64,000 nucleotides of DNA from Escherichia coli (GTDB taxonomy: Bacteria > Pseudomonadota > Gammaproteobacteria > Enterobacterales > Enterobacteriaceae): the NCBI RefSeq assembly GCF_016903815.1, contig NZ_CP069973.1. One strand, written 5' to 3'. The position numbers were made by a program. This document shows, piece after piece, positions 1 through 3,000 of this stretch; within the stretch, counting starts at the first letter, position 1, and every line of letters begins with the position of its first letter.

Positions 1-3000
1 GGTGATGTACCAGGCTGTTGTTACAGATTTTTAACTCCATGAAAACACTATGCAAACGCAGCCATACCCGGGTTGTCCCCTTGCGTTGTGTTTCTCAAGT
101 TAATAGAATACATCGATCGTTACTATCATATCGATCGTTATAAACGATCGTTTGTAGTAAATGACCTCCTCCTTGGTTGTCATGAAAATGCGTCTTAGGA
201 AGGTTAAATAATGCACGAAAAGAACATCGCCCTGCTTTGTGATGAAGCCGACCGACTTTTGCAACTGAACATTAATCTGCTCCGGCAAATGGTTGAGGAG
301 CCAGATGTGTTATCTGACAGTAAGAACGAAAACAGACTGCTTTTTGATAAACAGAAAGCACTGAAAAGAATTGAGGAGCTGGAGGGCGAACAAATCAAAA
401 CCGCCCGCAGGGAGATGGTGCTGGCTGTTGTCGGCACGATGAAAGCAGGCAAATCAACCACCATCAACGCCATTGTGGGGCAGGAAATTCTGCCTAACCG
501 TAACCGCCCCATGACCTCTGTACCGACGCTCATCCGCCACGTTCCCGGAAAAACTGAGCCGGTTCTCCATCTGGAACATATTCAGCCTGTCCGCAATTTA
601 TTAATCACACTGCAGGAAAAACTCGCCACCCCGGCAGGACAGCAGGTCGCACAGACCCTGCAGCAAACCGGGGATACCCGCGAACTGCTGGATATTCTGA
701 CGGATGATGGCTGGCTCAAAAATGAATACCACGGGGAGGAGGAAATCTTTACCGGACTGGCATCGTTAAACGATCTGGTTCGTCTTGCTGCGGCAATGGG
801 GACTGAATTTCCTTTTGATGAATACGCCGAAGTGCAGAAACTGCCGGTGATCGACGTGGAATTCAGCCATCTGGTGGGGATGGATGCATGCCAGGGAACA
901 CTCACACTGCTGGATACCCCCGGCCCTAATGAGGCCGGACAACCGCAGATGGAAGTGATGATGCGGGATCAACTGCAGAAAGCCTCTGCGGTTCTGGCTG
1001 TGATGGATTACACCCAGATGAACTCAAAAGCGGATGAAGACGTCCGTAAAGAGCTTAATGCCATTGCTGACGTATCAGCCGGCCGCCTGTTTGTACTGGT
1101 CAATAAATTTGATGAGAAAGACCGCAATGGCGATGGGGCAGATGCCGTACGCCAGAAAGTTCCGGCAATGCTGAACAGCGATGTGCTGCCCGCCTCCCGT
1201 GTTTATCCCGGATCCTCACGCCAGGCATACCTGGCTAACCGTGCGCTTCATGAGTTACGGAAAAACGGAACCCTTCCTGTTGATGAAGCCTGGGTCGATG
1301 ATTTTATCAGAGGTGCCTTCGGTTGCATGAAAAAAGAATACGTCTGTAAAGACAGTGAACTGGCAACTGAAGGGGCGACAGACCTGTGGGAAGGCTCACT
1401 TATCGATCAACTGATAACGGAAGTCATACAGAGCTCACATTCCAGAGCTGCGGCACTGGCGGTTGACTCTGCCGCCGCAAAACTGATGCAGAATGCAGAA
1501 AATATCAGTGAATACCTGTTGTTACGCCATCAGGGGCTACAGCAAAGCATTCAGTCACTGCAGTCGCATATCACCAGCCTGCTTGCGGATATCCGGGAAA
1601 TCGCGGACTGTCAGGAGCAGATGACCACTGATGTCAGAATGGCCATGGAGGAGATCGATACTAAAACCCGGGAATTACTGACGGGGGTCTGCACCTCACT
1701 GGAAGAGGAGCTGAATGACTATTTCAGAAGCGGTAAACGCAAAGAACAGCAAATGCTGGAGGAAGAAGACGCAGAACAACGAAGGTCTCAGTCCGGATTA
1801 TGGGGGAAAATTTCTCAATGGTCCGGTATCAACAACCAGGGCCGGGAGGATTACAGGAAACGAGATTTTGCCCCGGACAGCCCCGAAATAAAATTCAGTG
1901 ATCGCAGGGAAGCCCTTGAACTGATGACGCAAATCGAATCGACCGTGACCAGCCTGCACCGTGAGGCTGAAGCACAGTTCCGGCCTGAGCTGGAGAAAAT
2001 CGTCAGCGGGATTGAAACAGGTTTTCGTGGCACGGCCCTGTACGCCACAGAAAACATTGCCGGTCGCATCAATGCCCGCCTGGAGGATGAGGGCTTTACC
2101 GTAAAAATCAGTTTTCCGGCAGTCAGCCAGTTACAGACCCGGCTCGCGGTAAAAATAAATCTGAGTGCGCTTATGGAGGAAAGAACGGAGACCGTCACCC
2201 GTCGCCGTCGGCAGAGTGGCGTATGGGGAACCGTTTGTCGATGGTTTGGCACCAGTGACCTGGGCTGGGAAAACTATGACGAGGATGTGAGTCGCAGCGT
2301 GATCAATATCAACAAGGTCAGAGAGGAAGTTATGTCACTGACCCGGGCATATTTCGGGGAGCTGCAGGCATCCATTGAGCAGGATATTAACCAGCCCGTC
2401 CGCCAGGAAATCGATGCCTTTTTCTGCGCATTCAGGGAGAAAGTTGAACAACTGCGTAACACGCTGATTCAGAGCTCTGAAGATCATAAACGCGATCAGC
2501 AGGCGCAGGAACGGCTTACCGGGCGACTTCAGGCATTAAATGAAAGGGTTCCTGAGCTCATTACTGACAGTAAGGCGCTGAGGGAAGAGCTGGAGACAAT
2601 GCTGTGACTTCACCATTTATTCAACAAATTGCTGATAACCGGGTATGTCAGGTACTCACCTGTCTTCCTGAAAAATTTGTGGTTGATTTCGCAAACGGAA
2701 TCGATGTTGCACAGGAGCATATCCGCACGGCCGGAGAGCGCACGTTCTTCCGGCGTTTAAAAGAGGGGCTGACCGGCGAAGGCGCTGCACGGCAGAATGC
2801 CATCAATGCGTCGCTTGCACAGGGCGTTGAGGCGTCCCTGCGCTGGCTGACGGAGATGACAACGTCACTTGCCACCACAAACTACGCGATTACCCGGGTA
2901 AACGACAGGGTCAGTTCACTGGTCAGTGATACAGCCAGGCTGGCGCATTATTCCGCAGATACGCGGGAGCAGTTACTCACCCTGGCCGATCAGGTTCACC

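What the first reader, a model, noticed from the sequence alone, without database searches (positions are those of the whole stretch)
100..210. Three clustered GATC palindromes upstream of the GTPase operon: possible Dam-methylation-dependent switch
Seen in sequence: three GATC sites within 35 bp (115-118, 133-136, 146-149), each embedded in a near-identical TCGATCGTTA-type palindromic unit, directly upstream of the operon RBS. Established knowledge: triplets of GATC sites in a regulatory region underlie Dam/OxyR phase variation of agn43 (flu), which resides in the corresponding CP4-44 region of K-12, and Dam/Lrp control of pap. Inference: the operon may be expressed heterogeneously (ON/OFF) through competition between Dam methylation and a DNA-binding repressor, which would suit a costly abortive-infection system.
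Basis: partly seen in the sequence, partly recalled or inferred. Interest (0 to 1): 0.6.

Follow-up and report, generated by a model that had tools for sequence, protein, structure and literature searches.

The report
agn43-type methylation switch before dynamin operon
The three GATC sites are a diverged copy of the well-known Dam/OxyR on-off switch of the E. coli adhesin gene agn43, here placed in front of a dynamin-like GTPase/phospholipase operon, so that operon, found in about a third of E. coli genomes, is probably switched on and off heritably from cell to cell.

Summary
GATC sits at 115, 133 and 146, inside ATCGATCGTTA (twice) and AACGATCGTTT. Three GATCs within 35 bp is not rare by chance, but three CGATCG units at this spacing occurred in 0 of 100 shuffles.

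The block at window 99-158 is homologous to the agn43 (flu/cah) regulatory cassette. It lies just after a yeeP-like GTPase gene, in the slot flu holds in K-12 CP4-44. It shares the -35 TTGCGT, a 17-nt spacer, the -10 TAGAAT and five bases to GATC-I. GATC spacing is 18/13 here and 19/13 in agn43.

Positions 112-148 match the OxyR consensus at 16 of 20 positions; agn43 cassettes score 11-14.

In 120 metagenome loci the cassette always follows yeeP and precedes either agn43 (104) or this dynamin gene (14). About 1,980 of 5,426 complete E. coli genomes and E. albertii carry the dynamin form.

In strain MP1 the same five-gene operon, behind the same cassette, is the most differentially expressed cluster between two separately derived clones.

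The "abortive infection" label is not supported. This is a new member of a known kind; I found no earlier description.

The parts
81..86 (+). -35 box TTGCGT (predicted)
   Evidence: It is identical to the hexamer at the homologous position upstream of O157 cah, with the same 17-nt spacer to TAGAAT. K-12 flu has TTGTCC there. It is invariant in 10 sampled dynamin-type alleles. It was not reported by the consensus scan because it matches only 3 of 6 positions.
104..109 (+). -10 box TAGAAT (predicted)
   Evidence: It is shared with K-12 flu (L002 1807-1812) and O157 cah, in each case followed by 5 nt and then GATC-I. It is present in all 120 metagenome cassettes by construction of the pattern, and in 9 of 10 similarity-selected alleles; one allele has TAGAGT.
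115..115 (+). Predicted transcription start (G of GATC-I)
   Evidence: This is an inference from identical geometry to K-12, where the annotated 5' end of isrC (the flu leader) is the G of GATC-I. It also matches my recollection of Wallecha et al. 2002, which I could not check here.
115..118 (.). GATC-I
   Evidence: It is conserved in 10 of 10 sampled alleles and in E. albertii.
133..136 (.). GATC-II
   Evidence: It is conserved in 10 of 10 sampled alleles.
146..149 (.). GATC-III
   Evidence: It is conserved in 9 of 10 sampled alleles; strain 8178 has G146A.
112..148 (.). Predicted OxyR tetramer site, ATcGaTcgttaCTAT-N7-ATcGtTataAaCgAT
   Evidence: It matches the Toledano consensus ATAGnTnnnAnCTAT-N7-ATAGnTnnnAnCTAT at 16 of 20 positions. 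The homologous K-12 site scores 14 of 20. Only 1.5% of simulated 64-kb sequences reach 16. 13 of 14 dynamin-type cassettes score 16, against 11-14 for 106 agn43-type cassettes.
99..158 (+). Conserved switch cassette (block homologous to the agn43 regulatory region)
   Evidence: blastn hits H109 and H110 cover query 99-158 at 80% identity in agn43-only genomes. See also alignment A1 and the class-consensus comparison.
159..210 (+). Cargo-specific 5' leader with the Shine-Dalgarno sequence (197-203) and a complementary CCTCCTCC (165-172)
   Evidence: Homology to agn43 leaders ends near position 170. The predicted hairpin pairs 165-172 with the Shine-Dalgarno sequence.
211..2607 (+). Dynamin-family GTPase gene (CrfC/RdcA paralog, 798 aa)
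   Evidence: ORF. RefSeq annotation 'dynamin family protein'. NCBIfam CrfC model E = 1.2e-166, but below the family cut-off (556 against 1146 bits).
2604..3509 (+). RdcB-family protein gene (start overlaps the preceding stop)
3506..4576 (+). Patatin-like phospholipase gene (start overlaps the preceding stop)
4712..5395 (+). Hypothetical protein gene (fourth gene of the unit)
   Evidence: Annotation. Its counterpart SID94_RS19705 is co-regulated in MP1.
5411..5821 (+). Hypothetical protein gene (fifth gene of the unit)
   Evidence: Annotation. Its counterpart SID94_RS19700 is co-regulated in MP1.
5963..5992 (+). Strong terminator-like hairpin that ends the five-gene unit
   Evidence: 13-bp stem with 8 G-C pairs, followed by TTTTTCATTT.

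Best explanation
Window 99-158 is an agn43-type epigenetic phase-variation cassette. It consists of a sigma-70 promoter (-35 TTGCGT at 81-86, -10 TAGAAT at 104-109) with a predicted start at G115, overlapped by one OxyR tetramer site (112-148) that contains three Dam targets.

Proposed mechanism:
- When the three GATCs are unmethylated, OxyR binds across the start site, blocks transcription and shields the GATCs from Dam. This is the heritable OFF state.
- When Dam methylates them first, in the window after the replication fork passes, OxyR cannot bind and the promoter fires. This is the heritable ON state.

The output is ON/OFF expression of a five-gene unit (dynamin-like GTPase, RdcB-like protein, patatin-like phospholipase and two small proteins, 211-5821).

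Shown here: the sequence anatomy, homology to the agn43 cassette, genomic position, the OxyR-consensus match, distribution and conservation.

Inferred: OxyR binding, methylation sensitivity, the start site and bistability.

Because the site is nearer to consensus than the agn43 sites, the switch may be biased towards OFF. That last point is speculation.
For: 1. Homology. blastn of window 1-210 finds, in genomes that have only agn43, a hit covering 99-158 at about 80% identity and nothing else. Alignments to K-12 flu and O157 cah show the same order of elements: -35, 17 nt, TAGAAT, 5 nt, GATC-I, then 18 or 19 nt (start to start) to GATC-II, then 13 nt to GATC-III, then TTTRTAGT.
2. Position. 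The cassette directly follows a yeeP-like GTPase gene in the CP4-44 slot, next to yeeA-sbmC-dacD-sbcB.
3. OxyR consensus. The site scores 16/20, against 14/20 for the homologous site in K-12 flu, the experimentally characterised agn43 gene. Only 1.5% of simulated windows reach 16. 13 of 14 dynamin-type cassettes score 16.
4. Family survey. All 120 metagenome cassettes follow yeeP wherever enough upstream sequence exists. 104 precede agn43-family genes, all in the 48-nt form. 14 precede this dynamin gene, all in the 47-nt form. The dynamin form is therefore a stable lineage of its own, not a one-off deletion scar.
5. Conservation. E. albertii and 8 of 9 similarity-selected E. coli alleles keep all three GATCs. 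1,983 of 5,426 genomes carry the region. It occurs in at least three different islands: the CP4-44 slot, PAI-CFT073-aspV and MP1 island 8.
6. Expression. In MP1 the five genes behind this cassette (SID94_19700-19720) are the most strongly differentially expressed cluster between two separately derived strains, in all media, and do not track prophage induction (PMC12922286). That is the pattern expected from clonal ON and OFF states (compare PMC3764049).
7. The mechanism at agn43 is established (PMC2909390, PMC4872104, PMC13337833).
Against: - No methylation, binding or single-cell expression data exist for this locus.
- The GATC-I to GATC-II spacing is one base shorter than in every agn43 cassette seen, so GATC-I sits one position off in the OxyR frame.
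- The -35 box is weak (3 of 6 positions), and the generic promoter scan preferred a different, probably spurious, pair of hexamers at 100-129.
- Within the dynamin class the whole intergenic region is 97% identical, so retention of the GATCs there has little statistical weight. One natural allele has lost GATC-III.
- The metagenome survey required intact GATCs, so it cannot measure their conservation.
- The MP1 result compares a lysogen with a non-lysogen, so a phage-encoded regulator remains a possible cause.
Confidence: 0.68

Rival explanations
1. The cassette is regulated by Dam and OxyR but is not bistable. Either it is simply repressed by OxyR, held OFF by the near-consensus site, or it works like the Mu mom promoter, where methylation only licenses expression and no heritable ON and OFF lineages form.
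For: The OxyR match is stronger than in any agn43 cassette (16/20 against 11-14/20), which could let OxyR always outcompete Dam. Mu mom is cited as a Dam/OxyR-controlled gene whose phase variation is unknown (PMC2909390).
Against: The architecture is that of agn43: a single site overlapping the start point, with three GATCs at nearly the same spacing. It is not that of mom. The very large difference between two MP1-derived clones under identical conditions is hard to explain by uniform repression.
Confidence: 0.15
2. It is an evolutionary relic. The yeeP-proximal agn43 promoter region was left behind or reshuffled when cargo genes were exchanged, so the GATC sites persist by descent and the operon is expressed constitutively or from elsewhere.
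For: In O157-type islands the dynamin operon lies downstream of cah, so layouts have been rearranged. The intergenic region is too similar among alleles (97%) to prove purifying selection. One allele has lost GATC-III.
Against: The dynamin-type cassette has its own fixed form (18/13 spacing). It is found in E. albertii and in several islands. It keeps the -35 box, the -10 box, all three GATCs and an improved OxyR match. Sequence on either side has diverged from agn43 loci beyond recognition.
Confidence: 0.08
3. The palindromes are bound by a protein other than OxyR, such as an island-encoded HTH regulator or SeqA, with or without sensitivity to methylation.
For: CGATCG palindromes could in principle serve other dimeric regulators. 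Small HTH genes occur in the island upstream.
Against: The homologous agn43 block is documented to bind OxyR. The conserved non-GATC positions (CTAT, ATnG, the 7-nt spacer) are those of the OxyR consensus.
Confidence: 0.05
4. The inverted repeat at 132-150 acts as an RNA hairpin, either as an intrinsic terminator for the upstream yeeP-like gene or as a 5'-UTR structure, and the GATCs are incidental.
For: The terminator scan flags 132-150 (8-bp stem, then TTTGTAGT). The RNA fold of 100-215 has z = -2.6.
Against: The T-tract is poor. The same dyad in K-12 flu is followed by AAGCTAAT, which has no T-run. The dyad is the expected by-product of a palindromic OxyR half-site flanked by two palindromic GATCs. 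This reading does not explain GATC-I or the conserved promoter boxes.
Confidence: 0.04

Closest known systems
agn43 (flu/cah) Dam/OxyR phase-variation switch of E. coli
   Same: The cassette is homologous: about 80% identity over 60 bp, the same -35 and -10 boxes, the same five bases from -10 to GATC-I, three GATCs inside one OxyR-type site overlapping the start point, and the same location directly downstream of a yeeP-like GTPase gene in CP4-44-type islands.
   Different: The cargo is a cytoplasmic dynamin-like GTPase / RdcB-like / patatin-like phospholipase operon, not an autotransporter adhesin. The GATC-I to GATC-II spacing is 18 rather than 19. The OxyR match is closer to consensus (16 against 11-14 of 20). 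The leader is short (about 95 nt) and lacks the long agn43/IsrC leader; Rfam finds no IsrC match.
Salmonella gtr (phage P22) and opvAB Dam/OxyR switches
   Same: Dam and OxyR compete at GATC-containing OxyR half-sites and produce ON and OFF lineages (PMC2909390, PMC4856963).
   Different: Those have four GATCs in two pairs, and alternative OxyR sites upstream of the promoter that act as activator or repressor positions. Here there is a single repressor-type site with three GATCs over the start point. I found no sequence homology to them.
Phage Mu mom promoter (Dam/OxyR)
   Same: OxyR represses unless GATCs within its site are methylated (cited in PMC2909390).
   Different: As I recall it, and not checked here, the mom OxyR site lies well upstream of the promoter. 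Phase variation is not established for mom.
pap-family Dam/Lrp switches
   Same: Heritable ON and OFF states are set by methylation patterns at regulatory GATCs.
   Different: pap uses two GATC boxes 102 bp apart, Lrp and a PapI-like co-regulator (PMC2909390). None of these features is present here.
RdcA/RdcB (YjdA/YjcZ, also called CrfC) of E. coli K-12
   Same: The first two genes of the operon are paralogs of this dynamin-like GTPase and its partner (PMC6510439).
   Different: The proteins are only about 30% identical according to PMC12922286. The score is below the NCBIfam equivalog cut-off. A patatin-like phospholipase and two small genes have been added. The location is a mobile island, and the regulation is different: rdcAB belongs to the FlhDC regulon.

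Membership tests
agn43-type Dam/OxyR phase-variation cassette | Three GATC sites clustered within about 35-40 bp at conserved spacing (19/13 start to start) | tested here: met
   Three GATCs with spacing 18/13, one base shorter in the first interval. Spacing is 19/13 in K-12 flu, O157 cah and all 48-nt metagenome forms.
agn43-type Dam/OxyR phase-variation cassette | Sequence homology to the agn43 regulatory region | tested here: met
   blastn hit covering 99-158 at 80% identity, E = 1e-4 to 4e-4 against 28 Gb. Alignments.
agn43-type Dam/OxyR phase-variation cassette | The GATCs lie inside an OxyR binding site | tested here: met
   Met in silico only: 16/20 to the OxyR consensus at 112-148, and all three GATCs overlap it. 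Physical binding was not tested.
agn43-type Dam/OxyR phase-variation cassette | The OxyR site overlaps the sigma-70 promoter and start point, so that bound OxyR represses | tested here: inconclusive
   The -35 box, 17-nt spacer, -10 box and distance to GATC-I are conserved with agn43. The K-12 leader (isrC) is annotated as starting at the G of GATC-I. The start site of this operon was not mapped.
agn43-type Dam/OxyR phase-variation cassette | Located downstream of a yeeP-like GTPase gene in a CP4-44/CP4-57-type island | tested here: met
   119 of 119 loci with enough upstream sequence.
agn43-type Dam/OxyR phase-variation cassette | GATCs unmethylated in OFF cells and methylated in ON cells, with methylation abolishing OxyR binding | not testable with these tools
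   Needs per-molecule methylation calls or MboI/DpnI assays, and EMSA.
agn43-type Dam/OxyR phase-variation cassette | Heritable, reversible ON/OFF switching; a dam mutant locked OFF and an oxyR mutant locked ON | not testable with these tools
   Only circumstantial: the five-gene cluster behind the same cassette is the top differentially expressed cluster between two MP1-derived clones.
agn43 (flu/cah) gene family itself | The controlled gene encodes an Ag43-family self-associating autotransporter | tested here: not met
   The downstream gene is a dynamin-family GTPase. This is a member of the switch family, not of the agn43 gene family.
pap-type Dam/Lrp switch | Two GATC boxes about 102 bp apart in Lrp sites, plus a PapI-like gene | tested here: not met
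   Spacing is 18/13. There is no further GATC until position 772.
gtr/opvAB-type Dam/OxyR switch | Four GATCs in two pairs within alternative OxyR half-sites upstream of the promoter | tested here: not met
   Three GATCs within a single 37-bp site at the start point.
Known anti-phage defence system (PADLOC-DB v2) | The proteins match models of a described defence system | tested here: not met
   Only marginal hits: LeoBC 8.6e-5, with no matched stretch passing the threshold on its own, and a phospholipase effector at 1e-4. Genes 2, 4 and 5 have none.

The most novel reading that the evidence does not exclude
The Dam/OxyR switch, so far tied to surface structures (Ag43, O-antigen modification), here drives epigenetic bet-hedging of a cytoplasmic, membrane-acting dynamin/phospholipase module that may be an anti-phage or membrane-stress system. 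In this reading a fraction of cells in about a third of E. coli strains pre-arm a costly system. In O157-type islands the same switch would co-switch the Cah adhesin and the dynamin operon as one transcription unit, since no promoter-like or terminator-like site was detected between them. It would also mean that the published 'prophage-induced' up-regulation of this operon in MP1 is a clonal phase difference.
Probability: 0.3. Interest if true: 0.75.

Novelty: new member of a known kind. Interest (0 to 1): 0.55.

Why it matters
If the operon phase-varies, four things follow.

1. It would add a second, functionally unrelated cargo to the agn43 switch. That shows the yeeP-proximal cassette is a portable regulatory module, not just the private promoter of one adhesin.
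2. A very common accessory operon, present in about 37% of complete E. coli genomes including ST131, CFT073-like B2 strains, O145, O55:H7 and E. albertii, would be heterogeneously expressed. That affects any attempt to assign it a phenotype: single-colony bottlenecks would give ON or OFF cultures at random.
3. It gives a specific and cheap re-test of a published result, the strongest 'lysogeny-responsive' genes in MP1.
4. If the module is a defence or membrane-repair system, it would be an example of methylation-based bet-hedging of such a system.

Tried and rejected
- GATC clustering alone as evidence: rejected. A triplet within 35 bp is expected by chance in 65% of random placements.
- The generic promoter scan's candidate (TTAATA-18-TATCAT, 100-129): rejected in favour of the TTGCGT-17-TAGAAT pair, which is conserved with agn43.
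- Terminator reading of the 132-150 hairpin: considered unlikely.
- Rfam: no IsrC or other family matched. The only hit was IS102 at 20 bits, E = 0.55.
- The search for related loci in one genome per species: only E. albertii was found, so there is no deep phylogenetic footprint.
- Second 16/20 OxyR-like site at 43033-43069: it lies inside the rfbB coding sequence and is probably chance.
- Looking for direct methylation evidence: the ST131, O145, O111 and SMALR methylome papers name no unmethylated GATC at this locus, and the supplements held do not list site positions. Fang 2012, Wallecha 2002 and Kaminska 2010 are not held.
- Fold-changes for MP1: the supplement is not held.
- Literature searches for prior description (agn43+dynamin, yeeP+GATC, dynamin+GATC+Dam, three GATC+OxyR): nothing links this operon to Dam or OxyR. 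Subscription journals are largely outside the library.
- First CFT073 stretch fetched (310-359 kb) did not contain the operon. It was found at 264-269 kb.
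Full report
**Observation.** The window carries GATC at 115-118, 133-136 and 146-149. Two sites lie in identical ATCGATCGTTA units (112-122, 130-140) and the third in AACGATCGTTT (143-153). GATC is not over-represented in the window (214 sites against 233 expected). A GATC triplet within 35 bp is not surprising on its own: 65% of random placements give one, and a second real one lies at 25232-25249. The extended arrangement is significant. Three CGATCG units separated by 5-20 nt occur once in the window and in 0 of 100 shuffles, and all four copies of CGATCGTT in the 64 kb lie at 114-152.

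**Context.** The window is identical to the E. coli strain 7/2 chromosome. Window position 1 is 8 bp after the stop codon of a yeeP-like 'GTPase family protein' gene. Downstream lie a dynamin-family gene (211-2607), an RdcB-family gene (2604-3509), a patatin-like phospholipase gene (3506-4576) and two hypothetical genes. These are followed by the DUF932, antirestriction, yeeS, yeeT, cbeA and cbtA module, and then yeeA, sbmC, dacD and sbcB. This is the chromosomal slot of K-12 prophage CP4-44, where flu (agn43) follows yeeP. The first gene is a CrfC/RdcA paralog (E = 1.2e-166, but below the equivalog cut-off). A strong terminator-like hairpin at 5963-5992 closes a five-gene unit.

**Homology to the agn43 switch.**
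- K-12 reads TTGTCC-17 nt-TAGAAT-AAAAC-GATC...(19)...GATC...(13)...GATC.
- O157:H7 cah reads TTGCGT-17 nt-TAGAAT-AAAAC-GATC...(19)...GATC...(13)...GATC-GTTTATAGTGGTTAATGGCCT.
- The window reads TTGCGT-17 nt-TAGAAT-ACATC-GATC...(18)...GATC...(13)...GATC-GTTTGTAGTAAATGACCT.

MAFFT aligns these blocks while the flanks fail to align. Independently, blastn of window 1-210 against 5,426 complete E. coli genomes returns a hit restricted to query 99-158 at about 80% identity in genomes that have only agn43 (H109, H110). The K-12 annotation puts the 5' end of IsrC, the flu leader, at the G of GATC-I. The -10-to-GATC-I geometry here is identical, so the predicted start is G115. From memory, and not checkable here because the paper is not held, Wallecha et al. 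2002 mapped the agn43 start to that G and an OxyR(C199S) footprint to -16..+42. Transposed to the window, that is 99-156, almost exactly the conserved block.

**OxyR site.** Window 112-148 matches the Toledano 37-mer consensus at 16 of 20 specified positions, and the homologous K-12 site at 14 of 20. Only 1.5% of Markov-simulated 64-kb sequences contain any 16/20 site. The methylatable adenines of GATC-II and GATC-III fall in the ATAG and CTAT recognition elements of the second half-site, and GATC-I falls in the first ATAG element (read from the site alignment). Across 120 metagenome cassettes, the dynamin-type form scores 16 (13 of 14 loci) or 15. The agn43-type forms score 11-14. The other 16/20 site in the window (43033-43069) is inside rfbB and is probably chance.

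- Every locus with enough upstream sequence has a yeeP-like gene upstream.
- 104 have an agn43-family gene downstream, all with the 48-nt form.
- 14 have this dynamin gene downstream, all with the 47-nt form.
- Two were too short to classify, and no third cargo appeared.

Comparing the class consensuses, similarity is weak from the yeeP stop codon, peaks over the cassette and vanishes about 25 nt after GATC-III, near window 170. The cassette positions fixed by the search pattern are identical by construction.

**Distribution and conservation.** 1,983 of 5,426 genomes hold at least 80% of window 1-210. E. albertii, the only other species found, keeps all three GATCs despite about 8% divergence in the spacer. 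In ten alleles chosen by overall similarity, not by motif, nine keep all three GATCs. Strain 8178 has G146A. Mean identity is 97%, so this comparison has little power. The cassette precedes the operon in at least three islands: the CP4-44 slot, PAI-CFT073-aspV and MP1 island 8.

About 490 records, O157:H7 among them, match only from position 207 onward. In those sampled, the order is yeeP, cassette, cah, 110 nt, dynamin operon. No promoter-like or terminator-like site lies in the 110-nt gap, so the operon may still be read from the same switch there.

**Expression evidence.** PMC12922286 compared two MP1 derivatives, MP13 (Kapi1 lysogen, gfp) and KP7 (non-lysogen, mCherry). [quoted passage not shown] It never mentions phase variation, OxyR or methylation. 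I located that cluster: it is this same operon, preceded by TAGAATTAAACGATCGTTACTATAATATCGATCGTTATAAACGATCG. Two clones that passed through separate single-colony bottlenecks and differ most in exactly the genes behind an agn43-type cassette is what Chauhan et al. (PMC3764049) warn about for agn43 itself. This is circumstantial, and a phage-encoded regulator is not excluded.

**Mechanism.** For agn43, OxyR is a repressor with a single site containing three GATCs. Methylation abrogates binding, bound OxyR blocks Dam, and the two states are heritable, with switching at 10^-2 to 10^-3 per generation (PMC2909390, PMC4872104, PMC3764049, PMC13337833). By homology the same is proposed here, with confidence about 0.68.

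**Rivals.**
- Dam/OxyR control without bistability (0.15).
- A relic with no regulatory role (0.08).
- A different binding protein (0.05).
- A hairpin or terminator role for 132-150 (0.04). This one is weak because the T-tract is poor and is absent at the homologous K-12 dyad.

**Novelty.** Searches of the held literature found no paper connecting this operon, or any non-agn43 gene behind yeeP, with Dam/OxyR control. [quoted passage not shown] The switch itself is textbook, and the cargo and its prevalence are what is new. I rate it a new member of a known kind, with interest 0.55.

Noticed in passing
window 162-206: The operon leader contains CCTCCTCC (165-172), complementary to the Shine-Dalgarno sequence AGGAAGG (197-203). 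The minimum-free-energy fold pairs them (z = -2.6 for 100-215), which suggests possible occlusion of the ribosome-binding site. The region is too conserved to show covariation.
   Followed up: partly
window 43033-43069: A second 16/20 match to the OxyR consensus, containing GATC at 43036. It lies inside the rfbB coding sequence, so it is probably a chance match in AT-rich O-antigen DNA.
   Followed up: partly
window 25232-25252: Another tight GATC cluster: sites at 25232, 25244 and 25249 within 21 bp. I did not examine what it lies in.
   Followed up: no
L004 2894-3005; L140 5394-5505 (O157:H7 Gim1-1; strain CEC01311): In about 490 E. coli records the dynamin operon sits 110 nt downstream of cah (agn43 family), with no promoter-like or terminator-like site between them. 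Adhesin and operon may be one phase-variable transcription unit there. In L140 the two small genes 4 and 5 are absent.
   Followed up: partly
L131 (strain 8178, mouse isolate), aligned to window 146 and 151: A natural allele with G146A destroys GATC-III, and it also carries T151C. This is a ready-made two-GATC variant of the switch.
   Followed up: no
L138 8971-11470 (E. coli MP1, NZ_CP139039 4064970-4067470, minus strand): The five genes reported as the most up-regulated in Kapi1 lysogens (PMC12922286) are this operon behind the same cassette. The published 'lysogeny effect' could be a clonal ON/OFF phase difference.
   Followed up: partly
L136 4266-6663 (CFT073 PAI-aspV): CFT073 carries the identical cassette, but its dynamin gene is annotated as frameshifted and the upstream yeeP-like gene is truncated. 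Many metagenome loci likewise have only a fragment of yeeP upstream of the cassette (residues 1-65 or 208-291).
   Followed up: no
window 4596-4612: A moderate terminator-like hairpin lies directly after the patatin gene, inside the five-gene unit. It could attenuate expression of genes 4 and 5.
   Followed up: no
L005 3017-3253 (plasmid pKFu015_2): A 5' fragment of a divergent dynamin gene (about 71% identity) sits on a 92-kb plasmid between ISKpn26 and IS3000, without the cassette.
   Followed up: no
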